A DNA stretch of 18,265 nt from a virus (lineage: Duplodnaviria > Heunggongvirae > Uroviricota > Caudoviricetes). Location: the IMG/VR virus record IMGVR_UViG_2541047922_000008; one strand, written 5' to 3'. Both the position numbers and the translations under genes were made by a program. Shown here in pieces: positions 700 through 18,265 of this stretch; position 1 is the stretch's first letter; each line of letters opens with the position of its first letter. Below the pieces are notes generated by a model. That model saw only the letters and a program-made list of their open reading frames with translations. It did no database searches and was not told where the DNA came from.

Positions 700-1014
700 T
701 CACGATAGTTCCGTTTTGTTGAATTCAATTATATCAAGGTCAGAACTTTCGTAATCCTTACCGAATAAAGCAAAACATATCGCGTCAAGTTCTCTCTTAT
801 GTTTGGACGCCCGATCATAATTACCACCCCAACAGCAAATGAATCCACCAAGTACTGCTGATTCAAAAAGTAATGATGCTGCATCAATATGTCTGAACCA
901 GGAGTCTATAAGTAAAGCAGAGAGTGATATTAATGTTCCCCACCCGCCAATCCTTCTCCATTTCTCAGCTTCATATTTAAGAGAAGCAATATATTCAATT
1001 TTATCTCTCGTCAT
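700..1014 (-). CDS. small membrane protein (104 aa, two predicted hydrophobic helices), last gene of the cargo operon
   Basis: ORF with ATG overlapping the upstream stop (TGATG at 1012-1016). Hydrophobic stretches WGTLISLSALLIDSWF and ASLLFESAVLGGFICCWGG. About 35% GC, versus about 50% for the neighbouring genes. Confidence 0.6.
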   Translation of the reverse strand: MTRDKIEYIASLKYEAEKWRRIGGWGTLISLSALLIDSWFRHIDAASLLFESAVLGGFICCWGGNYDRASKHKRELDAICFALFGKDYESSDLDIIEFNKTELS

Positions 1015-3770
1015 CAGTTCCCCACCGCCTTTCCAAAATCCGGTGCTCTACGTGGCGCAATAGCACCCGGTTCCCACCAACTCGTTATGTCGAACTCCCG
1101 TTGCGAGCGGTCCCTTACTCGATCATTGTAACCAGGGTTTGCCATCTCCTGAAGTTGTTGCAATATCAGGTGATTGGTTATCGCTTTCGCATACCACAGG
1201 TTTGCGAATGGGGTGATCATGCGGGCTGTTTTCAGTGCATCGGCACCGAATGATGTTTCTTCACCCTGTAGAGCCTTCTGTGGGTTAGTAATCAGTAATT
1301 TTGTTAACTGCTCTGCAAAGCTCAACACAGGGCCCCCCATAGTGGCACCGATGCTGGAGCCATATTGCGTATGGTCCTGGAAAATAAAATCACCGTAGAT
1401 ACCGAACGAACCACCTTTCAGTAAAGCCTGAACCCATGTGGTTGGTTTTGTCATATCCAGCGGATCATTACCATTTAACAAACTGTTCATCTGGATCGCA
1501 AACATACCAGCAAGAGTTGTTCCCCCGATATATGAGGCCAGAAATTTAATGGCCGGAACGGTGTCCAAATCCCGTGTTCTGTTAACAAGTTGCCGAAATC
1601 CAGCAAATGGGGTTGTTTTGAAGAGCATGAAGCTCTTCATTAACTCGCCAGCATCATCACGGGCATATGTATCAATACCCGTAGCGGTGGTCACAGCATT
1701 GGTCATCTCACCGTGCGTAATTCCCAGCAATTTCTGGGCTGCTTCAGCGCGTGCATTACGAATCATGCGCGTGATGGTCTGCTCAGCCTCAGCGTCGAAT
1801 GCTTCTTTCATCCGTTTCAGGCGTTCTGGAGGGAGATCTCCAAGGGCTGCCAGTGCCTTTTCACTCCCGGCACGAATCCGGGTAATACGGTCTGCCATAA
1901 TGTCGGCTATTACGTTATCGGGCACAGCGTAAATCGCGTCTGGCGTCATCCCCATATGCCCGGCAGTAGTCATCGGCCTGAGTTCTGCCGCTGCCATGAT
2001 GGCCCAGTCCTCATTGCTCCATCCCTTGTTAGCCAGAATGGTTTTATCGGTTCCTTTCATATCGTCCAGCGTCTTAAATTTTCTGGTCAGCTCGCCAATG
2101 TTTTTGTACATCAGGAGACCAAACGACGCTTTGTTTGCGCGGTCCATAGCGATCAGCCCGGACCACTTCAGTGTCTTCTCTGCGAACCAGCCAGTTATGC
2201 CGCGAGACAAGTCAAACCCGCCCATTTTCGAAACCACAGCAGCATGTGAATCCACCAGCAGACCGAGTTCAGCATTCGCCTTTTTGGCATCTCCACTAAA
2301 CAGGTTTTTGATAGTGTTAACGGAAAGCCGCATTCCACCACGGGTAAAGCCCAGCGCCTGCGCATTTGCCCGCATAATTGCCTGGTCGCTGGTTGCTGTC
2401 AGTACGCTGGTGCCAAGCATGGCGCTGGTCATCAGGTTACGCAGACCACCAACTGCTGAAGAGAACACACTCGATGAAGCGACACCATTTAGGCCAGCCA
2501 TTGAGTTGAACATACGGGCAACTAATTTGGCCTCATCCTCCATTTCTTTTTTGCGTTTCCCGCCTGTTACTGCGCGCTTATAGATGCGATCCAGTACCAG
2601 GGAAAAGTTTCTTTCGGCGTCCGGACCAAAGGCTTTAACGACGCCCAAATCCCTGGATGATGATTGCAGGTGCGACATCATCACCCCCACCAGCGGCTGC
2701 TGAGTGTATCGCTCCATATAGGCGAAGTGTGACTGCGCATCCTTGAACGCCATCACCCTGTGCTGAGAACCACGGCTCTTTATTCCTCCGGCTCCCATAA
2801 ATGTACCAGGCTCAATTTTGTTTGCCCCATCAGTGGCCTTCGTTTCAAAGATCGCTTCCAGTGCCTGACGGTACTCGACGTCATTCATAATGCTGCCGTC
2901 AGGATTAACGTAATTGCTGCGATCCTGCGTGTTGTAAGCGTCATCAACCCATTTCTGGCGGGCAAACTCAATCGGTGGCTGGCGACCTGAAAGACGTGCT
3001 GTAGCTTGCTCTGCCACTGGTAACGATGCCAGCCATTCTTCGCGCCCGGCATTGCGAATAAGGTCAGCATCATCCACATATGGCGTATGCCAGTCTTCTC
3101 GCAGGCCTATGTCAAAGCCATTGTCGTTCATCTCATGACGAACACGGCCTGTTACATCCTTCCAAATCTGTGCAATTTTCTTCGCCAGGGGATTCCCGGT
3201 ATCTTCGCCATATATTTCTTTCAGGATCTGGAGTTGTGCAGACTTTGCCGCCTGCCTGTCGAATACACTCCGAAACCGCTGCTCTCCAAGCGCCCTGCTC
3301 TGCTCGAAGAATTTGCGGACGTCATCACCTGCTTTTAGAAGTTCAGCACTGAGCTGACGGGACCAGTCCTGATATGCCCCAATTGCAAGCTCTTCAGCAG
3401 AAGTAACGGAGATATCAGCTTTGTCTCTCGATCGTCGGCCAGCAAAAATAAACTGCTGCAAATTAACAGGTGTCTGCTGATCAGGCGGGATGTTAGCATC
3501 GAGAGTGTCAGTAATTTTACTGATGGCGATCGCATTCTGGGCAACACGCTGTCTTTTCTTGTACACATCATGAACCACACGCTGGCGAACCAGTTCTGCA
3601 GCATCCATGTATGTTTGAGCATCAGGAATACCACTTTTGCCTTCCATTGCATTCTTTCTGTGCACTTGCCGCACAGCTTCTTTGATACGATCTTCGATAT
3701 TTTTCAGCTCATCAGCCTTTGGCTGGCGACCAAGTGTCTGCGCAATAGCTTCAACACATGCCTGTTTCAT
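1014..3770 (-). CDS. giant protein C (about 918 aa), unknown function, Gly/Ser/Ala-rich hydrophobic central region, no P-loop
   Basis: Long ORF. The ORF track starts at a GTG at 3791; I prefer the ATG at 3770, which overlaps the stop of protein B as TAATG (3768-3772), the same junction as between A and B. No Walker A motif seen. Confidence 0.85.
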   Translation of the reverse strand: MKQACVEAIAQTLGRQPKADELKNIEDRIKEAVRQVHRKNAMEGKSGIPDAQTYMDAAELVRQRVVHDVYKKRQRVAQNAIAISKITDTLDANIPPDQQTPVNLQQFIFAGRRSRDKADISVTSAEELAIGAYQDWSRQLSAELLKAGDDVRKFFEQSRALGEQRFRSVFDRQAAKSAQLQILKEIYGEDTGNPLAKKIAQIWKDVTGRVRHEMNDNGFDIGLREDWHTPYVDDADLIRNAGREEWLASLPVAEQATARLSGRQPPIEFARQKWVDDAYNTQDRSNYVNPDGSIMNDVEYRQALEAIFETKATDGANKIEPGTFMGAGGIKSRGSQHRVMAFKDAQSHFAYMERYTQQPLVGVMMSHLQSSSRDLGVVKAFGPDAERNFSLVLDRIYKRAVTGGKRKKEMEDEAKLVARMFNSMAGLNGVASSSVFSSAVGGLRNLMTSAMLGTSVLTATSDQAIMRANAQALGFTRGGMRLSVNTIKNLFSGDAKKANAELGLLVDSHAAVVSKMGGFDLSRGITGWFAEKTLKWSGLIAMDRANKASFGLLMYKNIGELTRKFKTLDDMKGTDKTILANKGWSNEDWAIMAAAELRPMTTAGHMGMTPDAIYAVPDNVIADIMADRITRIRAGSEKALAALGDLPPERLKRMKEAFDAEAEQTITRMIRNARAEAAQKLLGITHGEMTNAVTTATGIDTYARDDAGELMKSFMLFKTTPFAGFRQLVNRTRDLDTVPAIKFLASYIGGTTLAGMFAIQMNSLLNGNDPLDMTKPTTWVQALLKGGSFGIYGDFIFQDHTQYGSSIGATMGGPVLSFAEQLTKLLITNPQKALQGEETSFGADALKTARMITPFANLWYAKAITNHLILQQLQEMANPGYNDRVRDRSQREFDITSWWEPGAIAPRRAPDFGKAVGN

Positions 3771-5830
3771 TATGGGTTCCTCAAGAAGCACGCTGCCGCT
3801 ACAGAATAAACCTTCGATTCGTTCTGGACTGTCTTAATCTGTTCATCCAACTCAGCCAGGAGATCAGAAAGTTTTGTCGGGTTTCCGGTTTCCGGGTGAG
3901 CTATAGTCAGCTCAGGATTGGCAACAGCCATGTCCCTAGCAGCCATAAGGTCATAGCTGTTGGATGAGAGAACCTGCCCTGTATCTGGATCAACGCTGAC
4001 GTCCCCTCTGTGTTCACCAGCCGATGAGAAAGCACTTTCAGCACGAGGGACAGGCGATTCACTAATTGGCTCTGATGATGTTTCATATCTGACACCATTT
4101 TCTTCAAAAACCTTTTGTATTTCATGGTATTGCTCTTGGTAAGTATCAGATATATCTGATCGCAATGGACCATCAAGCCCTCGCGCCATCCCCCCAACAT
4201 TTACAGGCTGACCATCATTAAGTTGCCTGTATGCTTCATCCATGGCGTCAACATGGCTGTTGATGCTCTCATTGCTGGTGTGAAGCACTGGTGACGATTC
4301 AATATCGTAATGAAGCCCCTCATTCAAAATGTGGGCTGCATCAATATCGCTTGGTTTTATTCTTTCCCTCGCCCGGATACCAAAAACTTTTTCTACTGCG
4401 GCTTCCAGTTTCATATTGCGAAGACGCATACTTACGAGTAACCGTAACTGCTCAGGTGTAACGGTTCCAACCTGAATACCACTGTATCTGAATATATAGG
4501 CTTTAAAACCTGAAATAATTTTTTCCCATGATGAAACGCTTGTCTTTAGAGATGGATTTACTGCATGTGCGGCAACTTCTTCAGCGTACAACCACTCAGG
4601 ATATGTTTCAGGGTACTCACCCCTTTTCTTATATTCATAATATTGTGACATCCCATATGCAAATTCAGGATAGTCAGAATGCTTGTTTGCAGATTTAAGT
4701 ACAGCATTAGCTAGCTTTCTGGCCTTCCAGTCAGGGTAATGGCGCTGCTCAAGATGAAGCGCCTCGTGATGAAGGGTTTCTAACAGTTCTTCATGGTCTT
4801 TTAATCCATTAATATTTATTCTTATTATTGGTTCTTTTCCAGAAGCTACTGTCACATGACCTTTATTCAGAAGTATTTCTCCATCACTATTTTTTATTGC
4901 TGGTTCATTAATAAGTTCTATTACTCCTGAATCAGATAAATCACGAACCATTGACTCAATGTTACCATCAGGAGATTGCTGATAATGTTCACCAAAAGTT
5001 GATTTTATTTCTTCTGCAGAAATGTTCGACTCTGTACCATCATGGTTATTATGGGTAGTCAGGTGATGAACGCCACCAAAGACCCCGCCTAAAACGGCAT
5101 CGACTAACATCGCCTGACCGTCAAATACCCGGTACTGTTTTGCCATCTCCGTGTAGCCTTTTTCCTCCAGTGTTGCGCCGACAGAGTAACGGTTCAGTCC
5201 ACCGAATCCGGTGTTGATTGCCACACCTGAGGCAATGCGCGTTGCCAGTGTGGTGCCGACGGCAGCGGGTAAGGCCATACCCACAGCATTGAAAAGGCTT
5301 TGCTGCGTTGCCAGGTTACGCGCCGTAGCCTCGTCTACTCCCTTCCCTTTAAAATCCTGATAGGACTGCTCATACGTAGAACTGAAAGCTGTAGCAGCGC
5401 CGATGAGGGGACCGCCAAACATAGTTGTTCCGATTGCAGGAACAAATTTACCAAGCTCATTTAATACCTCAGCCGCCATTCCCTGACTGCCTGCATCAGG
5501 CTTCACATAGCTGCGGGCATCCTGTAACTGTTTTCCGATCGTGTCGTATGTATCATTCAGTGTTTTGTCAGCATCAGGGAACATCTCCCGAAAAATATTA
5601 ACAGTCGGTGCCACGTCTGCGGTAAATGCCGGATCGCTAATCAGGCGCTTGCTGAATCCGACGGCAGACTGCGCGAGACCGAGAGTCCCCTCCGCCACGC
5701 CGCTCAAAAGTGCAGTACCTGAACCCTGGAAGGGAGTCGGATCGTAGTCTTCTGGCCTTGCTGGGTTGGCAACTGTTTTGTCGTCAATCCATGCCTGACC
5801 TTCTGGAGCCAAAGAAAAAACATCAGACAT
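3770..5830 (-). CDS. giant protein B (686 aa), N-terminal glycine-rich hydrophobic segments plus a single HExxH zincin-type motif
   Basis: Long ORF whose ATG overlaps the stop of protein A (TAATG at 5828-5832). HHEALHLEQ at residues 354-362 (nt 4745-4771). GxxxG-rich hydrophobic stretches across residues about 120-260. No P-loop. Confidence 0.85.
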   Translation of the reverse strand: MSDVFSLAPEGQAWIDDKTVANPARPEDYDPTPFQGSGTALLSGVAEGTLGLAQSAVGFSKRLISDPAFTADVAPTVNIFREMFPDADKTLNDTYDTIGKQLQDARSYVKPDAGSQGMAAEVLNELGKFVPAIGTTMFGGPLIGAATAFSSTYEQSYQDFKGKGVDEATARNLATQQSLFNAVGMALPAAVGTTLATRIASGVAINTGFGGLNRYSVGATLEEKGYTEMAKQYRVFDGQAMLVDAVLGGVFGGVHHLTTHNNHDGTESNISAEEIKSTFGEHYQQSPDGNIESMVRDLSDSGVIELINEPAIKNSDGEILLNKGHVTVASGKEPIIRININGLKDHEELLETLHHEALHLEQRHYPDWKARKLANAVLKSANKHSDYPEFAYGMSQYYEYKKRGEYPETYPEWLYAEEVAAHAVNPSLKTSVSSWEKIISGFKAYIFRYSGIQVGTVTPEQLRLLVSMRLRNMKLEAAVEKVFGIRARERIKPSDIDAAHILNEGLHYDIESSPVLHTSNESINSHVDAMDEAYRQLNDGQPVNVGGMARGLDGPLRSDISDTYQEQYHEIQKVFEENGVRYETSSEPISESPVPRAESAFSSAGEHRGDVSVDPDTGQVLSSNSYDLMAARDMAVANPELTIAHPETGNPTKLSDLLAELDEQIKTVQNESKVYSVAAACFLRNP

Positions 5831-8361
5831 TATTCAACCCTCACGACAATAGCTTCATTGGTTCTGGGATCTGTTGCCCAGCGTCCGCTACCATTTACCA
5901 GCCGATACCGGTTATTGCCGATATTAACTGGTGTGAAGTTTGACACTGCATTTACGTTAAGTCCGGCTTCTTTCAGTGCTTGTTTCGCAGATGTGGTATA
6001 GCGATCTTTGAAAGTAGATTTATCCATGCCGAAAGGCATTACAACGTCGCCGCCATTAAAATCCTTGTATATACCGCCAGTAGCATACTTCACGGCATCA
6101 GCAACAGTGTCTGTATCAGGCATACTGGTTCTTACCGTAGATGCATCACCTGATTGATAAGCTATTCCTGCGTAAGCGGCTTTGAAAAGGCTATAACTGA
6201 TCTGACGTAACTGCGGGTTACGGGCAAATGCGTTACCTACCTGTTTGTCGAAAGCGTCTTTCATCTTATCTTCGCTCGGCAACTGTACCGGAGTTATGCC
6301 CGCATTCTTCATGGCCTTCGTCGGATTCAGTAGTTGGTCACCGGAAAGAATAACCTTTGCAACGTCGTACTTGTTCATCGTCGGCTTATACCCGATGAAC
6401 TGACTATATGGGATCGACGGTCTGGTGTTATCGTACTGATTATCCGGCGTGCCCAGCAGCAGCGCAGAATAGGCTGTTGCCGCACTGTTCGGAGCAATTA
6501 CAGATGCCACCTGCCGTATTGCTGGCGCAGGCAGCTTCTCCCCCATGCTCTGCAACAGTTTAATTGTCTGGTCAACGTTCTGAGTGCCGCGCACCTGCTG
6601 TGCCAGCGCAGCCGCCTCTTCACTGTTGAGGATTGGGGCATTAATTCCCAACGCGCGTAAGCTTTCCTGCGACGAGAAACGGTTAGCCACCTCGGCAGTG
6701 ATGTCGTCAGGGTTGTTGCTGGTGATCGGCTTATAGGCTCCGATTTCCACCGCTGCACTAAACGGATTATTCTGCCTCTGGGTTATTACCTTCGTGGCTG
6801 CCGCCGATACCCGGTCGAATAACTCCGCACGAGACGCATACCCCTCCCCTGTCTCACCAGTATCCGGGCGTAATTGCTCAACATATGCGGTAATGCTGCT
6901 TGTCGGCATGTTGCGGAAAGAGCCTATATACTGTCCGGCGATCTGCAAATTTCTGAACTCGGTATATCGCAGGTTTCCTTCTCTGACACCATAAGCAGCA
7001 ATGAACTCACCCTCACCAGGCGGGTTAGGAAATTCAACGCCACGCATATACGCAGCCGTTGCATCGCGAACCCGGCTTTCGAGCATCGTTCTATATTCAG
7101 CCTGCTGCTGTCTGGCTAATGCATCCGTCTGTCGCAACACGCTGGCCTGATCTGATTCACTTAAAGCATCGAACCAAGCTACACCGGTATAACGTTTATT
7201 TTTTGTCGGTAGCTGAGAAAGCCCCAGTGCGGCACTAACGCCAGCGGCCAATTGCTGATCACTGTACGGCTGACTGCCTTGCTCATGATGAATAATTGCT
7301 TTGCACAGAGATTTCAGTGTGTCAGGATTTGATGCGTCAAGCGGCTGGTCAGGAGTTACACCGAGCTGAGCACATACTGCCCGTATATAAGCATCAGTTT
7401 TATTATCATCACTGGCCGGTGCCCAGCGATTAATTATTTCGCTGATGGTGTCATAACCCTGACGCTGATACGACAGCAAATTGCGACCAAGCGCGCGAAT
7501 ACCGTGTTCAGGGGTTTCGAATTTGGCAAAGCGACCATCATCACCAGTCTGCCCAACCCACGGATTAGTTTTGCTGTATTCAAGATTGCCGGGGTTATTG
7601 TTGCGTATACCGCGGGTACGATCGGAAGAGCCACTATCTGCTACAGCACGGCGAGATCCAGCAGCAGTATCGCTTAACTCGCCGTTTTGCTGTCTTACCT
7701 GAAGATAGTTTGCTCCAATAGCATTTTGAGCAGTTGCTTTTGCTGTTGCTTCTTTAAACTCGATTTTCTTGGCCTGGATTTGCTCGTCGCTCCAGCCATG
7801 CGCAATACCGTAATCCTCAATTTGCTGGAAAGTTTGCGTATTAGCCAATATGTATGCTGCGTTGTCGCCATATAATGCTGAGGCATTTTTACCATTATTC
7901 AGCAGTGTCGCCTGAAACTGGCCTTCTTCGTAGGCATTTATTTGCCCTATCTCGTACCTCCCGGCCTGCGTAGCGAACTGAATACGCTGCTGCTGCGCCT
8001 GCTGCATGAAAGCATTACGAGCCTGTTCATCCGGCAGCGACATAGCCAGTTGTTCGATCTGAGCATCAAACTGCTGTGTATACTCATGGCCTTTTCCAAT
8101 AGCATTTTTCCCTTTCAGGTTAAGCAATCCTGTTTCAGGATTATTCAGCAGATCACTGCCTGTCTGACTGAGTTTAAGGGATGCCTCCTGAACCAAGGCA
8201 ATATTGGCGCGCTGTTTTGCCTGACCAAGAACATCAATTGCCTCTGTCCCTGCCCGAACAAAAGCATCACCAATACCTGGCTGAGAAAACGTCTGCAAGC
8301 CTGCTGACTGAACTCCACGGCTCTCAACCTGGCGTCCGGATACTGTTGGTACGACTGGCAT
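5830..8361 (-). CDS. giant protein A (843 aa), Q/A/N-rich, unknown function
   Basis: Long ORF with ATG at 8361 preceded by an AGGGGG Shine-Dalgarno. Sharply defined block TRGIRNNNPGNLEYSKTNPWVGQTGDDGRFAKFETPEHGIRALGRNLLSYQ at residues 248-299. No P-loop. Confidence 0.85.
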   Translation of the reverse strand: MPVVPTVSGRQVESRGVQSAGLQTFSQPGIGDAFVRAGTEAIDVLGQAKQRANIALVQEASLKLSQTGSDLLNNPETGLLNLKGKNAIGKGHEYTQQFDAQIEQLAMSLPDEQARNAFMQQAQQQRIQFATQAGRYEIGQINAYEEGQFQATLLNNGKNASALYGDNAAYILANTQTFQQIEDYGIAHGWSDEQIQAKKIEFKEATAKATAQNAIGANYLQVRQQNGELSDTAAGSRRAVADSGSSDRTRGIRNNNPGNLEYSKTNPWVGQTGDDGRFAKFETPEHGIRALGRNLLSYQRQGYDTISEIINRWAPASDDNKTDAYIRAVCAQLGVTPDQPLDASNPDTLKSLCKAIIHHEQGSQPYSDQQLAAGVSAALGLSQLPTKNKRYTGVAWFDALSESDQASVLRQTDALARQQQAEYRTMLESRVRDATAAYMRGVEFPNPPGEGEFIAAYGVREGNLRYTEFRNLQIAGQYIGSFRNMPTSSITAYVEQLRPDTGETGEGYASRAELFDRVSAAATKVITQRQNNPFSAAVEIGAYKPITSNNPDDITAEVANRFSSQESLRALGINAPILNSEEAAALAQQVRGTQNVDQTIKLLQSMGEKLPAPAIRQVASVIAPNSAATAYSALLLGTPDNQYDNTRPSIPYSQFIGYKPTMNKYDVAKVILSGDQLLNPTKAMKNAGITPVQLPSEDKMKDAFDKQVGNAFARNPQLRQISYSLFKAAYAGIAYQSGDASTVRTSMPDTDTVADAVKYATGGIYKDFNGGDVVMPFGMDKSTFKDRYTTSAKQALKEAGLNVNAVSNFTPVNIGNNRYRLVNGSGRWATDPRTNEAIVVRVE

Positions 8362-8789: not shown

Positions 8790-9030
8790 TCTGTGCTTAC
8801 TTCTGGTAGTTACGCCATACTGATTTCCCGATCCCATCTATCCCCATTTCTTTTTCAGTGCGTTTAAGCGACCGTTTCAGGTCTTCTAAATTATCCGGTT
8901 GCTTTGGTGGCCTCTGTGCCTTGCTGGAACATTCCAGTCGTCGCATTGATATGCAATACCGTTCCTTGTCAGTACCCCAACTGCATTACTTCACCCCATC
9001 GCGCCGCCGCTCTTCGGTACAGGGTTTTAG

Positions 9031-10446: not shown

Positions 10447-10574
10447 TTTTGCGGGTTACAATCGCACATTTGCGGGTTATAACTGCCGTTTTGCGGGTTA
10501 CGTGCGGGTTATTGATTTCCTTTTTAATCATGCAGTTAATTAACTTATACACAGGATAACCCGCATAACCCGCA
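10447..10574. repeat. iteron cluster, putative origin of replication
   Basis: Four direct copies of TTTGCGGGTTA at 10447, 10468, 10488 and 10502 (spacing about 21, 21, 11 bp). Two inverted copies TAACCCGCA at 10557-10565 and 10566-10574. An AT-rich spacer lies between them. Located between the primase stop and the ssb start. Confidence 0.6.
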
Positions 10575-15731: not shown

Positions 15732-15929
15732 TCAGGCAGCCGTTCCGCGTGATTCGGCAATACGCTGATTGATCCATTCGTCAATTTCACTTTCAACGAA
15801 AGCAATCGCTCGCGAGCCAATTTTAACTGATGCAGGAAATTTACCTTGCCCCATAAGGCGATAAATCCATGCCTTGCTATATCCAGTTCTACGCTGAACT
15901 TCTGTTAAACGAATAAGCGTATTTGACAT
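15732..15929 (-). CDS. alpA: AlpA/Vis-family HTH regulator (excisionase-like)
   Basis: LIRLTEVQRRTGYSKAWIYRLMGQGKFPASVKIGSRAIAFVESEIDEWI is the classic AlpA (Phage_AlpA) pattern. GAGGT Shine-Dalgarno. Confidence 0.85.
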   Translation of the reverse strand: MSNTLIRLTEVQRRTGYSKAWIYRLMGQGKFPASVKIGSRAIAFVESEIDEWINQRIAESRGTAA

Positions 15930-15933
15930 CTAT

Positions 15934-16109
15934 TTACCTCATAACGTCTACTCAATTTGACGAGGTAATCATGGCACAGAAATAACGAATATTTTCATAC
16001 CCTCAGGCCTAATGGTTACCGGAAGGAAATTAACCCTAAGGGTGATGGTAAAATTGACGGGGAAGATAAAAAAAATACCCTCAGGGTAACAGTAAATCAC
16101 CCTCAGGGT
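15934..16109 (-). promoter_or_regulatory. alpA leader: Shine-Dalgarno-sequestering inverted repeat plus phased palindromes
   Basis: Inverted repeat TTACCTC (15934-15940) / GAGGTAA (15962-15968) pairs the alpA Shine-Dalgarno with an upstream anti-SD. Palindrome ACCCTCAGGGT at 16077-16087 and 16099-16109, variant ACCCTAAGGGT at 16033-16043, half-site ACCCTCAGG at 15988-15996. Centre-to-centre spacing 45, 44 and 22 bp. Confidence 0.5.
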
Positions 16110-16124
16110 ATGTGGTATGGTGCG

Positions 16125-16928
16125 TTAATCCGGCTTTGCGTTCTTTTGGCTGTTGTCTCGGTTAATAGGGCAGGCAGTCCTCTCTATGAGCGTTGCAAGA
16201 GCATTACTTGCCCCCCACTGCTTAAGCTCCCTGGTTATCGCTTCTTGATTTCCCCTGGTGGCAAAATCATTTTCTGGATCGTAATTGGCCCACTCTCTGT
16301 TTCTAATCTCAATAGCCTTAGCTAATGGGTCTTTATCCCAGTATTTATATAAGTGTATCGGGCGCTCTTGCTCTAACTGCTCTATCCTTGCCCTTAACTC
16401 TGCGTTTTCTCTTTCCAGCATTGCGATTTGGGATAATAAATCATCCTCTGTACGCAACTCTTTCTTTTCAATATCGCGTCCTTGTGCCTCGTCATTTTCA
16501 GAAGAGTTAGCGCCTTCCAGCTTCGTTAACGCGTCAAGGACATCGGGAAAAATTGCGAAAATTTCACCCCTTATAAATCCAATGTTCTCAAATTCGGGAT
16601 CTTCCCAATAACCGGACACCAGAAAACCATTTTCATCCCTCTCACCAGGTAAACAACCATGTTTCCGAACCGCATCCAGATTTCTATAAAGAACATCATA
16701 ATCAAATTCATCCCGATACGGGTTACAAAAAGATTCCAACAGCTTAAATTCATTTACTGTGTACAGGCGGATATGTTCTCCGCTTATTCTCCTGAGTATC
16801 CAAGTTATGAGATCTGAAACATCATAATCATCACCAGCGACCTTAAGCACGACCTCAAGAAATTCACGTAAAGAAATAAAATCTTTTTTGTATTCGTTTA
16901 ATTCGGCATGAATATCAATCATACGCAC
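16125..16928 (-). CDS. acidic protein (267 aa) with central coiled coil, unknown function
   Basis: ORF with GAGGTG Shine-Dalgarno. About 56 Asp+Glu versus about 36 Lys+Arg. Heptad-like segment LLSQIAMLERENAELRARIEQLEQER. Sits between int and alpA. Confidence 0.6.
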   Translation of the reverse strand: MRMIDIHAELNEYKKDFISLREFLEVVLKVAGDDYDVSDLITWILRRISGEHIRLYTVNEFKLLESFCNPYRDEFDYDVLYRNLDAVRKHGCLPGERDENGFLVSGYWEDPEFENIGFIRGEIFAIFPDVLDALTKLEGANSSENDEAQGRDIEKKELRTEDDLLSQIAMLERENAELRARIEQLEQERPIHLYKYWDKDPLAKAIEIRNREWANYDPENDFATRGNQEAITRELKQWGASNALATLIERTACPINRDNSQKNAKPD

Positions 16929-17050
16929 ACCTCAGCGTCCTCTACTGTAGTGGCTGTGCCAGCCCGTCGAGGTATACGGTTTTTCGGGAGCGACCCTAGA
17001 CACAGCCTTTTCTTTCGTCGCTCAAAGTCTACTACTGTATACTCAACCAG

Positions 17051-18265
17051 TCATCCACATTTTCCGAACTTGCCATGCACCACGTTGCCGCCCTGTTCCA
17101 GTGAGTCCATATAGTCGGCGTACCACTGGAGCATCTCGCGCCGCCCGTCCAGATATTGCGCATGATTGTACGTGCCACGAATTGAGTTCTTATCAACGTG
17201 TGCAAGCTGCGTTTCTATCCACGCGGTGTTATAGCCCTGCTCATGTAAAATCGTGCTCATCGTGTGCCGGAACCCATGACCAGTAACGCGCCCAGAATAG
17301 CCAATACGACGAATAAGCACGTTCATCGCCATTTCACTCATCGGCTTACTGTGCTGGATTCGACCAGGGAAAATAAACTGATACTGCCCCGTCATGTGTT
17401 TTAACTGTTCCAGAATAGCGATCGCCTGTTCTGAAAGCGGCACACAATGAGGACGGCGCATCTTCATTCGTTCTTTAGGCACTTCCCACAAACGATTATC
17501 AAAATCGATCTCCTGCCATTCTGCCTGTCGTAATTCCCCTGGCCGGAGCCCTGTCAGAATCAATAATCGCATACCCAGCTTGACGATCTGGCTTCCGGTG
17601 TACGTATTAAGAACGCGGAAAAATTCCGGCAGTTCGTCGGCCTTCAAATAGGCATAATGCTCTTTTTTGTGTGGAGCAAATGCGCTTGCCAGATCTGGTG
17701 CGGGGTTATATTCAGCGCGTCCGGTGATGATTGCGTACCGGAACACCTCGCCGCATCGCTGGCGAACCTTACGCAATTTTTCGGTCGCCCCACGGTCATT
17801 AAGACGGGAGAGAACCGCAAGCAACTCCATTGGCTTAATTTCTGCGATCGGCCTGCCGCCAATGTACGGAAAAACGTCTTTTTCAAACGTCTCGATCATT
17901 TCCTCGGCGTATGACGATGACCACCTGTCGATCCGCTTTTCATACCATTCGCGAGCGATACCCTCAAAAGTATTGCCAAATTTGCTCGCCTGTTCTCGCT
18001 TTTGAGCTTTTCTGGCCTCACTTGGATTTATACCACCAGCAAGAAGCCTTTTAGCCTCATCCCTTGCCGCTCTGGCATCAGACAGAGACACATCAGGGTA
18101 CACGCCCAACGACAACATTTTGGGCTTTCCTGCAAATCTGTAACGTAGTCGCCACCCTTTCGAGCCGTTCGGCTCAATGAGTAACGAAAGCCCGTTACCG
18201 TCATTGAGTGTATAAGCCTTTTCTTTCGGCTTCGCGCGCCTGATAGCAAGGTCTGAAAGCAGCAT
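17051..18265 (-). CDS. int: tyrosine recombinase, P4-type integrase
   Basis: N-terminal arm-binding pattern LSDLAIRRAKPKEKAYTLNDGNGLSLLIEPNGSKGWRLRYRF. Catalytic-domain residues GLRPGELRQ, HGFRHT and the tyrosine in RGTYNHAQY. The ATG is the last three bases of the window. Confidence 0.9.
   Translation of the reverse strand: MLLSDLAIRRAKPKEKAYTLNDGNGLSLLIEPNGSKGWRLRYRFAGKPKMLSLGVYPDVSLSDARAARDEAKRLLAGGINPSEARKAQKREQASKFGNTFEGIAREWYEKRIDRWSSSYAEEMIETFEKDVFPYIGGRPIAEIKPMELLAVLSRLNDRGATEKLRKVRQRCGEVFRYAIITGRAEYNPAPDLASAFAPHKKEHYAYLKADELPEFFRVLNTYTGSQIVKLGMRLLILTGLRPGELRQAEWQEIDFDNRLWEVPKERMKMRRPHCVPLSEQAIAILEQLKHMTGQYQFIFPGRIQHSKPMSEMAMNVLIRRIGYSGRVTGHGFRHTMSTILHEQGYNTAWIETQLAHVDKNSIRGTYNHAQYLDGRREMLQWYADYMDSLEQGGNVVHGKFGKCG

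What the first reader, a model, noticed from the sequence alone, without database searches (positions are those of the whole stretch)
16125..16928. Strongly acidic coiled-coil protein wedged between int and alpA
Integrase-proximal slots in P4-like and PICI-like elements are known variable cargo positions. This 267-aa protein has a net charge of about -20 and a central coiled coil, with no recognisable enzymatic motif. Highly acidic proteins at such positions are often DNA mimics (anti-restriction or anti-defence, as with Ocr and ArdA) or regulators. Its coding region is also more AT-rich than int.
Basis: inference. Interest (0 to 1): 0.55.

Follow-up and report, generated by a model that had tools for sequence, protein, structure and literature searches.

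The report
Modular regulator gene guarding alpA
The acidic protein between the integrase and alpA is most likely not a DNA mimic but a previously undescribed two-part regulator that pairs up through a leucine zipper and recognises a set of repeated DNA sites in front of alpA, the master switch of this phage-satellite island.

Summary
The ORF is real (16125-16928, minus strand; true start probably the ATG at 16922, 265 aa), acidic (net -20, pI 4.7), AT-rich and has a central leucine zipper. The DNA-mimic reading is not supported. There is no fold or sequence match to Ocr, ArdA or anything else. The acidity lies in the variable part and is not conserved in the family. No relative occurs in 50,697 phages or 72,556 plasmids. 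The protein is modular: an exchangeable N-terminal domain, a GCN4-like zipper and a nearly invariant ~70-aa C-terminal module that is in no database. In 80 loci chosen only by AlpA, the int-alpA slot is filled in 74 of 75 cases by a co-oriented gene. The class of that gene's C-terminus perfectly predicts which repeated motif lies between its stop codon and alpA (here ACCCT-N-AGGGT). The N-domain, integrase and AlpA do not predict it; identical AlpA proteins occur with three motif classes. Pasteurellaceae islands show the same gene-repeat-alpA arrangement. The gene is also always preceded by the orphan Rfam 'int-alpA' RNA motif. Best reading: a dimeric, sequence-specific regulator (probably a repressor) of alpA with a swappable sensor domain. 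All of this is inferred from sequence; none is experimentally shown.

The parts
16125..16922 (-). Slot gene (265 aa from the ATG at 16922; the mechanical ORF extends to the GTG at 16928). Modular regulator candidate.
16503..16922 (-). N-terminal domain (residues 1-140): confidently folded alpha/beta domain, acidic, highly variable between alleles and exchangeable between C-terminal classes. Proposed sensor or partner-binding part.
   Evidence: pLDDT 77-90 for residues 11-130; variability; independent occurrence; domain-swap table
16455..16502 (-). Acidic, disordered linker (residues 141-156, SSENDEAQGRDIEKKE).
   Evidence: pLDDT <50; sequence
16365..16448 (-). Leucine zipper (residues 159-186): Leu at d positions 162/169/176/183, Asn173 at an a position as in GCN4. 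Predicted parallel dimerisation.
   Evidence: only zipper-type matches in PDB sequences
16158..16364 (-). Conserved C-terminal module (residues 187-255: RP.LL..DDPL..AI..RN..W..Y...A.AIE.VACPI.R). Proposed DNA-recognition module; undescribed family.
   Evidence: near-invariant in A1; invariant W/P/R in A3/A4; no Pfam or PDB match; covaries with downstream repeats
16939..17006 (-). int-alpA RNA motif (Rfam RF02996), ending 17 nt before the slot gene's ATG. Conserved 5' leader of slot genes of all classes.
   Evidence: 46.9 bits vs gathering 35.8; found upstream of slot genes in 9 of 17 other loci scanned and in L110/L111, also where no integrase is upstream; absent from slot-less islands
16099..16109 (.). 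Operator-like palindrome 1, ACCCTCAGGGT.
16077..16087 (.). Operator-like palindrome 2, ACCCTCAGGGT, followed by a T8 run; 22 bp from site 1.
16033..16043 (.). Operator-like palindrome 3, ACCCTAAGGGT; 44 bp from site 2.
15997..16007 (.). Degenerate fourth site (ACCCTCAGGCC, 2 mismatches), the closest to the alpA promoter region.
15937..15965 (-). Inverted repeat in the alpA leader (CCTCGTCAA...TTATGAGG) that includes the alpA Shine-Dalgarno. Its counterpart CTCGTAAACCGCAATAGACGTTACGAGG is shared by nearly all slot classes.
15732..15929 (-). alpA (Phage_AlpA family), the proposed regulated target.
   Evidence: Pfam 2.4e-19; published role of AlpA as PICI activator (PMC6092414)
17051..18265 (-). 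Tyrosine integrase (context; not a fixed partner of the slot gene).
   Evidence: integrase identity 54-97% among loci with the same slot class

Best explanation
The gene encodes a modular transcription regulator that belongs to the alpA control region of this PICI/P4-like satellite island. Two chains pair through the parallel leucine zipper (residues 159-186). This brings two copies of the conserved C-terminal module (187-255) together, so that they read the two-fold-symmetric sites ACCCT-N-AGGGT. Three full sites plus one degenerate site lie in the 195 bp between the gene's stop codon and alpA, spaced by whole helical turns, so bound dimers would line up on one face of the DNA next to or over the alpA promoter. 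The most likely effect is repression of alpA, the activator that starts excision and replication of such islands. The variable, acidic N-terminal domain would be the exchangeable input part: it receives a signal (most plausibly a helper-phage protein) that releases the DNA. The gene's own expression is probably set by the int-alpA RNA structure in its 5' leader. Shown by sequence analysis: the modular anatomy, the zipper register, the strict covariation of C-terminal class with repeat motif, the helical phasing, and the conserved frame. Inferred: DNA binding by the C-module, the sign of regulation, and the sensor role of the N-domain.
For: (1) Anatomy: variable N-domain, zipper and near-invariant C-module; the two halves occur independently in 93 representative clusters. 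(2) In 80 loci fetched by AlpA alone, 75 have int upstream and the 1.0-2.1 kb slot holds a co-oriented gene in 74. (3) Clustering the slot proteins by their last 100 aa predicts the repeat in the spacer before alpA. C0 (this module; 38 loci, 27 distinct spacers): 2-5 ACCCTNAGGGT. C1 (divergent module): GGTGGGYRC inverted repeats. C2 (unrelated C-terminus): (A/T)YTTCYAAA direct repeats. Singletons have their own palindromes. (4) Natural domain swaps: C0 with four N-domain types always has ACCCTNAGGGT; N1 and N3 take the motif of whichever C-terminus they carry. (5) An identical AlpA protein occurs with C0, C1 and C2 (L100, L096, L098), and integrase identity is 54-97% within C0, so neither specifies the repeats. 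(6) 41 sites in 13 diverged C0 spacers against 0.06 expected; spacings 22-24/32-33/42-44 bp; the rest of the spacer is at 57-68% identity against a 55% shuffled baseline. (7) In the window the motif occurs only in this spacer. (8) Independent lineage: in Aggregatibacter, Bisgaard taxon 46 and Gallibacterium the C-module gene is again followed ~160 bp later by an AlpA gene. The spacer has an inverted repeat with the same ACCCT/AGGGT core, and its right arm overlaps a predicted extended -10, TGCTATAAT. (9) A palindromic site fits a parallel dimer (Asn at an a position). (10) The literature leaves room for it: a global repressor of Gram-negative PICIs is 'unclear' and the helper signal that turns on alpA is unidentified (PMC6092414).
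Against: No experiment exists. The C-module has no detectable similarity to any known DNA-binding domain (only sub-threshold RecX_HTH1/SAMD1_WH hints). It is about charge-neutral rather than basic, and is modelled at only moderate confidence (pLDDT 61-80). The C-terminal coding DNA and the repeats are physically adjacent, so co-inheritance as one recombination block would by itself give covariation. The promoter of alpA is not mapped; the simple promoter scan found none in the window. In E. coli most sites lie upstream of the likely -35, which would also suit an activator. The best-studied PICI, EcCICFT073, has no gene in this slot and is still helper-inducible, so such a regulator is not required in all AlpA islands. 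Gene and target are co-directional, unlike classical divergent repressor/operator layouts.
Confidence: 0.58

Rival explanations
1. Same DNA-binding regulator, but an activator: it sits upstream of the alpA promoter and switches alpA on when its N-domain receives the helper-phage signal.
For: In E. coli C0 spacers the full sites are centred 107-162 nt upstream of the alpA ATG, mostly upstream of the likely core promoter. alpA promoters look weak: no consensus promoter was found. Helper phages are known to raise alpA transcription (PMC6092414, PMC11773190).
Against: In the Pasteurellaceae loci one arm of the repeat overlaps the predicted extended -10, the position of a repressor. Multiple specificity classes paired with the same target gene resemble immunity repressors. 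Slot-less islands are still inducible, so no dedicated activator is needed.
Confidence: 0.17
2. Accessory cargo in a variable hotspot (an anti-phage defence or interference protein with sensor and effector halves). The repeats are regulatory sites for something else or are simply co-inherited.
For: Hypervariable content at a fixed position, domain shuffling and low GC are typical of defence hotspots in satellites. The island carries other unknown large cargo.
Against: No PADLOC, Pfam or enzymatic domain. Every allele class comes with its own phased repeats at the alpA promoter. The gene has a conserved RNA leader shared by all classes. The gene-repeat-alpA unit is kept across bacterial families. 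The conserved half is a small helical module, not an effector-like domain.
Confidence: 0.1
3. Protein-protein regulator: the conserved C-module binds a conserved partner (AlpA, integrase or a host protein) rather than DNA, for example as an anti-activator, and another factor binds the repeats.
For: The C-module is not basic and matches no DNA-binding family. AlpA is 98-100% identical in all close E. coli loci. The protein is acidic overall.
Against: The repeat class tracks the C-terminus and not AlpA (identical AlpA with three classes) or Int. A host factor cannot explain class-specific repeats. A dimeric zipper matched to palindromic, helically phased sites is most simply explained by direct binding.
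Confidence: 0.08
4. DNA mimic / anti-restriction or anti-defence protein.
For: Net charge -20, pI 4.7, dimerisation element, integrase-proximal position, low GC.
Confidence: 0.03
5. Replication or partition function: the repeats are iterons or a centromere and the protein is their initiator or ParB-like binder.
For: Arrays of 3-6 phased repeats next to the gene for their presumed binder resemble Rep/iteron or ParB/parS layouts.
Against: The island has a separate iteron block (three 21-bp TTTGCGGGTTA repeats at 10448-10510) in the canonical PICI ori position just downstream of the primase (ori position from PMC10111431). The slot repeats always abut alpA. There is no ATPase partner gene.
Confidence: 0.04

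Closest known systems
Stl master repressors of staphylococcal pathogenicity islands (SaPIs) and, more generally, immunity repressors of lambdoid phages
   Same: A regulator encoded next to the integrase; a conserved DNA-binding part joined to a variable part; cognate operators in front of the genes that start the element's cycle; several specificity classes exchangeable between otherwise similar elements. The role of Stl is taken from the literature (PMC6092414) and my own knowledge.
   Different: No HTH of a known family; DNA-reading module at the C-terminus behind a leucine zipper; co-directional with its target instead of divergent; target is the activator gene alpA; binding of a phage protein is untested.
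Eukaryote-type bZIP factors (GCN4, C/EBP); one RefSeq homolog is even annotated 'bZIP transcription factor'
   Same: Four-heptad leucine zipper with Asn at an a position; palindromic target sites.
   Different: No basic region: the segment before the zipper is acidic and disordered. The conserved module follows the zipper. The PDB matches are zipper-only and not significant (E >= 0.066).
Ocr (T7 gp0.3) and ArdA DNA mimics
   Same: Acidic, dimeric, encoded on a mobile element.
   Different: No fold or sequence similarity; lower and non-conserved charge; absent from phages and plasmids; tied to a specific DNA repeat set and to alpA.
int-alpA RNA motif (Rfam RF02996)
   Same: The window carries a bona fide copy at 16939-17006.
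   Different: The motif is named for lying between int and alpA and, to my knowledge, has no assigned function. Here it proves to be the 5' leader of the slot gene. It is present even where terminase genes replace int and absent where no slot gene exists.
Gram-negative PICIs such as EcCICFT073
   Same: Same backbone: int, alpA, YlcI/YnfO, Icd-like, DUF4222, primase, SSB, PerC, mostly unidirectional.
   Different: EcCICFT073 has alpA directly after int (365-bp gap), an AlpA only 36% identical, no int-alpA RNA, and capsid genes where this island has three giant unknown genes.

Membership tests
Ocr/ArdA-type DNA mimics | Fold resembling Ocr or ArdA (elongated, DNA-shaped acidic surface) | tested here: not met
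Ocr/ArdA-type DNA mimics | Sequence membership (Pfam ArdA / Ocr families) | tested here: not met
   No Pfam family at E <= 0.01; none in 68 relatives.
Ocr/ArdA-type DNA mimics | Very high, conserved negative charge | tested here: not met
   -0.075 charge per residue; family range -23 to +5, median -11; conserved module about neutral.
Ocr/ArdA-type DNA mimics | Inhibition of restriction or defence enzymes | not testable with these tools
   Needs restriction-alleviation assays.
Satellite or phage master/immunity repressor (functional class, e.g. SaPI Stl, lambda CI) | Cognate repeated operators at the promoter of the gene(s) that start the lytic or excision cycle | tested here: met
   Class-specific, phased repeats between the gene and alpA; covariation with the C-terminal class. 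Binding itself is inferred.
Satellite or phage master/immunity repressor (functional class, e.g. SaPI Stl, lambda CI) | Recognisable DNA-binding domain (HTH of a known family) | tested here: not met
   No Pfam or PDB match for the C-module or the whole protein.
Satellite or phage master/immunity repressor (functional class, e.g. SaPI Stl, lambda CI) | Represses its target; relieved by a helper-phage protein or SOS | not testable with these tools
   Needs reporter, deletion and interaction experiments.
bZIP transcription factors | Leucine zipper with heptad Leu | tested here: met
   Leu162/169/176/183, Asn173 at an a position; single helix 159-186.
bZIP transcription factors | Basic DNA-contact region immediately N-terminal to the zipper | tested here: not met
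   Residues 141-158 are acidic (SSENDEAQGRDIEKKELR) and disordered.
int-alpA RNA (RF02996) | Covariance-model score at or above the curated gathering score | tested here: met
   46.9 bits vs 35.8, full-length match 1-71.
DUF6387 (PF19924; occupies the same slot in other islands) | Pfam match above gathering score | tested here: not met
   The window protein has no Pfam hit; DUF6387 matches only slot class C3.
Gram-negative PICI (island level) | int, alpA and primase, mostly unidirectional, integrated at a specific site | tested here: met
   (tRNA-Gly between actS and yqeG).
Gram-negative PICI (island level) | Helper-phage-dependent induction and packaging; packaging or capsid-related late genes | tested here: inconclusive
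   No capsid or packaging gene recognised in the window; induction is not testable here.

The most novel reading that the evidence does not exclude
The unit 'int-alpA RNA leader + modular slot protein + its operators' is the missing helper-sensing switch of a large lineage of AlpA-type satellites in Enterobacteriaceae and Pasteurellaceae. It would be an immunity-like cassette, flanked by conserved DNA and therefore freely exchangeable. Its C-module is a new DNA-binding fold holding alpA off, and its interchangeable N-domains each capture a different helper-phage protein to release it. This would be the Gram-negative functional counterpart of SaPI Stl, and would give the orphan Rfam motif RF02996 a function.
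Probability: 0.3. Interest if true: 0.8.

Novelty: new variant of a known kind. Interest (0 to 1): 0.62.

Why it matters
How Gram-negative phage satellites stay silent and how a helper phage switches on their activator AlpA is an open question. The founding paper states that a global repressor is 'unclear' and the inducer unidentified (PMC6092414). Later surveys list only Int and AlpA in the 'integration zone' (PMC10111431). For one widespread AlpA lineage, this analysis points to a concrete candidate: a protein family in no database, its operator sequences, and natural domain-swap alleles. All three can be tested directly by gel shift, reporter and deletion experiments. It also relocates an orphan structured RNA (int-alpA, RF02996) to the 5' leader of this gene, and suggests a new small DNA-recognition module. 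If the N-domains are helper sensors, their diversity would map satellite-helper specificity.

Tried and rejected
- **Family libraries:** Pfam, NCBIfam, PADLOC and PHROGs gave nothing; the only PHROG/NCBIfam matches are coiled-coil noise.
- **YfjH:** YfjH of K-12 CP4-57, which also lies between intA and alpA, is unrelated and on the opposite strand.
- **Deep searches:** the searches with the 80-aa C-terminus alone and with the C-module alignment returned almost nothing because of the tool's word index.
- **Genome scans:** the C-module alignment was too diverse for the search for related loci, and the first genome scan found no relative.
- **C-module-only profile:** no hit against PDB sequences or Pfam; the MHC class I hits are chance.
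- **Promoter scan:** no sigma-70-like site, so the sign of regulation could not be settled.
- **Terminator idea:** two palindromes score as weak terminators, but stems of 4-5 bp and four copies argue for protein sites.
- **AlpA as binder of the repeats:** rejected, because an identical AlpA occurs with three motif classes.
- **Repeats as ori:** made unlikely by separate iterons next to the primase.
- **EcCIMP1 as an experimental example:** its 'gene 002' is a tiny, unrelated ORF, and its record is not in the collections.
- **Clustering artefact:** a first N-domain clustering was spoiled by a spurious shared leader, which is the translated int-alpA RNA; it was redone after trimming.
- **Correction:** an earlier notebook count of C-module loci (44/75) was wrong. 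The right figure is 51/75 (39 close + 12 divergent).

Full report
**1. The observation**

The ORF exists as described. It runs from 16928 down to 16125 on the minus strand and is 267 aa from a GTG. RefSeq and all full-length homologs begin two codons later, at the ATG at 16922 (265 aa, WP_021567027.1), which has a GAGG 7 nt upstream.
- Net charge is -20 and pI is 4.7. GC is 41.8% against 50.7% for int.
- The acidity lies in residues 1-180; the last ~85 residues are about neutral.
- The gene sits between a tyrosine integrase (17051-18265) and an AlpA-family gene (15732-15929), all co-directional.
- No Pfam, NCBIfam or PADLOC family matches. The only PHROG hits are to the coiled-coil stretch.

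The window is an ~18 kb island at a tRNA-Gly gene between actS and yqeG in E. coli FDAARGOS_1298. Its gene order is int, this gene, alpA, antA, bro, two YlcI/YnfO genes, icd-like, DUF4222, a DUF927 primase, SSB, ProQ, PerC, and three giant unknown genes. That is the backbone of Gram-negative PICIs such as EcCICFT073.

**2. Anatomy of the protein**

Homologs are few and all unannotated: 31 clusters at 90% identity, from E. coli, Salmonella and Citrobacter. Their alignment shows three parts:
- **N-terminal ~150 residues:** diverge to near-unrecognisable.
- **Heptad-repeat segment:** Leu162/169/176/183 at d positions and Ile166/Asn173/Ile180 at a positions. This is the GCN4 pattern that favours parallel dimers.
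- **Last ~70 residues (ERPILL..DDPL..AIEIRNREWANYDPEND.ATRGNQ.AI..EL...G....A..IE..ACPI.R):** almost invariant.

An exhaustive profile search found 93 clusters at 50% identity. In these, the N-domain and the zipper + C-module occur independently of each other. None of 68 diverse members hits Pfam. Every C-module is directly preceded by a coiled coil.

AlphaFold2 on the 16-sequence alignment gave pLDDT 72.6:
- a confident alpha/beta N-domain (10-residue block means 77-90 for residues 11-130);
- a disordered acidic linker (140-156);
- one long helix (159-186);
- a small helical C-module (pLDDT 61-80).

**3. The DNA-mimic idea**

The evidence is against it.
- Family net charge ranges from -23 to +5 (median -11), and the conserved part is neutral.
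- tblastn finds no relative in 50,697 phage records or 72,556 plasmids. From my own knowledge, those are where Ocr/ArdA-type genes are normally found.

**4. What occupies the slot**

In 23 viral-collection loci that carry a relative, the gene always lies between int and alpA. AlpA is 98-100% identical in all of them. The integrase is either ~97% or ~66% identical, and the primase only 42-52%. The gene therefore travels with alpA/antA, not with int.

An unbiased set of 80 loci was fetched by AlpA alone (75-100% identity).
- 75 have an integrase upstream.
- The 1.0-2.1 kb slot holds a co-oriented gene of ~230-380 aa, or a two-ORF version, in 74 of them. One (L086) is degraded.
- 39 carry the close C-module, 12 a divergent version, 9 an unrelated C-terminus (..RGGK.NKSA..), and 6 DUF6387. 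The rest fall in small classes.

The slot is not universal.
- EcCICFT073 has alpA directly after int, and its AlpA is only 36% identical.
- A tRNA-Thr island of the EcCIMP1 type also lacks the gene.

**5. The key result: repeats that follow the C-terminus**

Between the stop codon and alpA the window has ACCCT(N)AGGGT at 16099, 16077 and 16033, plus a degenerate copy at 15997. The motif occurs nowhere else in 18 kb (7 strand-matches against 0.32 expected; 3 against 0.24 at <=1 mismatch).

Across the AlpA-anchored loci, the class of the slot protein's last 100 residues predicts the repeat in this spacer without exception:

| C-terminal class | Repeat in the spacer before alpA |
|---|---|
| C0 (this module; 27 distinct spacers) | 2-5 ACCCTNAGGGT |
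| C1 (divergent module) | GGTGGGYRC-type inverted repeats |
| C2 (unrelated C-terminus) | (A/T)YTTCYAAA direct repeats |
| L056 | CCGCAATTGCGG x2 |
| L103 | TGGAATATTCCA x2 |

Three controls show that the motif follows the C-terminus and nothing else.
- **N-domain.** Natural domain swaps separate the two halves. C0 occurs with four N-domain types and always has ACCCTNAGGGT. N-domain types N1 and N3 take the motif of whichever C-terminus they are fused to.
- **AlpA.** One identical AlpA protein occurs with C0, C1 and C2 (L100, L096, L098).
- **Integrase.** Its identity ranges from 54 to 97% within C0.

The repeats themselves are under selection.
- In 13 diverged C0 spacers there are 41 sites against 0.06 expected.
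- Spacings are nearly all 22-24, 32-33 or 42-44 bp, close to whole helical turns.
- The last full site is centred 107-109 nt before the alpA ATG in 9 of the 13.
- The remaining spacer is at 57-68% identity, against a 55% shuffled baseline.

**6. An independent lineage**

The C-module also occurs in Aggregatibacter, Chromobacterium violaceum and a Caudoviricetes MAG. Three Pasteurellaceae genomes were examined.
- The gene is followed ~160 bp later by a Pfam-confirmed AlpA gene, then an Ash gene and a D5/DUF5906 primase.
- The upstream neighbours are terminase genes, not an integrase.
- The spacer contains an inverted repeat (ATAGCAA[A/T]AGGGTGATAG / CTATCACCCTATTGCTAT) with the same ACCCT/AGGGT core.
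- Its right arm overlaps a predicted extended -10, TGCTATAAT. That placement favours repression.

**7. A conserved RNA leader**

Rfam places the curated int-alpA RNA motif (RF02996) at 16939-17006, with 46.9 bits against a gathering score of 35.8. It ends 17 nt before the slot gene's ATG.
- The motif precedes slot genes of classes C0, C1, C2, C3 and others.
- It also precedes the Pasteurellaceae genes that have no integrase upstream.
- It is absent from the slot-less islands L107 and L109.

It is therefore the 5' leader of the slot gene. Its translation also explains spurious N-terminal extensions ('RLIPENPYTS...') in some ORF calls.

**8. Interpretation**

The simplest account is a dimeric, sequence-specific regulator. 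Its C-module reads the palindromes in front of alpA, and its N-domain is an exchangeable input domain. The frame is conserved: RNA leader, gene, operators, a universal alpA leader with an inverted repeat over the Shine-Dalgarno, then alpA. That frame would let whole alleles be swapped by recombination, like immunity regions of lambdoid phages.

I favour repression for two reasons: the Pasteurellaceae operator overlaps the predicted -10, and the several specificity classes resemble immunity regions. An activator is not excluded.

Rivals:
- **Replication origin.** Made unlikely by a separate block of 21-bp iterons at 10448-10510, in the canonical position after the primase.
- **Defence cargo.** Hard to reconcile with the cognate repeats and the shared RNA leader.
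- **A purely protein-binding C-module.** Hard to reconcile with class-specific repeats that ignore AlpA and Int.

The main weakness is that the C-terminal coding DNA and the repeats are adjacent, so linkage contributes to the covariation. In addition, the C-module resembles no known DNA-binding domain, and nothing has been tested experimentally.

**9. Novelty**

The papers I could search do not describe this gene.
- PMC6092414 calls a Gram-negative PICI repressor 'unclear' and the inducer unidentified.
- PMC10111431 lists only Int and AlpA in the integration zone.
- The only paper mentioning 'int-alpA' just lists the motif.
- DUF6387 has no functional literature.

I rate it a new variant of a known kind: a mobile-element master or immunity regulator built from an undescribed protein family, with an unusual layout.

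Noticed in passing
window 16939-17006 (-); L110 4415-4480; L111 3822-3887; nine further loci: The orphan Rfam motif int-alpA RNA (RF02996) lies immediately 5' of the slot gene in every class. It is also there where terminase genes replace the integrase upstream, and it is missing from islands without a slot gene. It looks like that gene's 5' leader rather than a free-standing sRNA.
   Followed up: partly
window 15937-15965 (-); equivalent 'CTCGTAAACCGCAATAGACGTTACGAGG' in most loci L048-L105: An inverted repeat just before the alpA start codon, whose 3' arm contains the Shine-Dalgarno GAGG, is shared by nearly all slot classes. It could be an RBS-sequestering hairpin or the AlpA autoregulation site.
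   Followed up: no
window 700-8361 (-): Four co-directional, tightly packed genes (843, 686, 925 and 104 aa) fill the 'late zone', where EcCICFT073 has capsid genes. None has any Pfam or PADLOC match. This may be an undescribed cargo or defence system.
   Followed up: partly
window 10448-10510: Three tandem 21-bp repeats (TTTGCGGGTTA...) between the primase stop and the SSB gene, the usual place of a PICI replication origin.
   Followed up: partly
L062, L064, L066, L067, L074, L089, L100, L105 (slot regions): In a whole sub-lineage the slot gene is split into two ORFs: an N-domain ORF of ~100-120 aa, and a 151-155-aa ORF with the end of the N-domain, the zipper and the C-module. The split is kept across diverged loci, so it seems functional rather than decay.
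   Followed up: partly
L027, L031, L038, L043 vs window 15997-16111: Near-identical E. coli islands differ in the number of palindromes (3 to 5 full sites) through gain or loss of 22-bp and 33-bp units. This is operator copy-number variation.
   Followed up: no
L048-L053, L057, L076, L077, L081, L083, L096: A divergent version of the C-module (..WSTYD..P.TAPT...YL...GAG.N.A.AVNL.LRP...IGRR.KK, with a basic tail) is paired with GGTGGG/CCCACC-type inverted repeats. This is a second specificity class of what seems to be the same fold.
   Followed up: partly
L065, L069, L075, L084, L088, L093, L095, L098; proteins P0060, P0061, P0076, P0080, P0100: A third, unrelated C-terminal module (..GKDTALMLIAGLA.ALEK....RGGK.NKSA..) joins the same N-domain types and is paired with 3-6 direct repeats of (A/T)YTTCYAAA. 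It is also undescribed.
   Followed up: partly
L108 3529-4380 (E. coli O157:H7 F7349); L061, L082, L087, L097, L099, L101: DUF6387 (PF19924) proteins occupy the same position upstream of related alpA genes. In O157:H7 the pair lies next to ypjA, with two integrase genes downstream rather than upstream.
   Followed up: no
L110 20-3943; L111 222-2938: In Pasteurellaceae the RNA leader/slot gene/alpA/Ash/primase unit lies directly after HNH, small-terminase and large-terminase genes. These elements seem to carry their own packaging genes, and they also carry C4/isrK-type immunity RNAs.
   Followed up: partly
L107 9161-9525 (EcCICFT073 int-alpA spacer): The slot-less model PICI has its own short direct repeats right after int (GAAACAACG / GACACAACG / GAACAACAAG ...) and a second set (GACACAA) before alpA. 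Their binder is unknown.
   Followed up: no
window 8797-9022 region (L001 12148-12373): The PerC-family regulator gene of this island is annotated as frameshifted in RefSeq.
   Followed up: no
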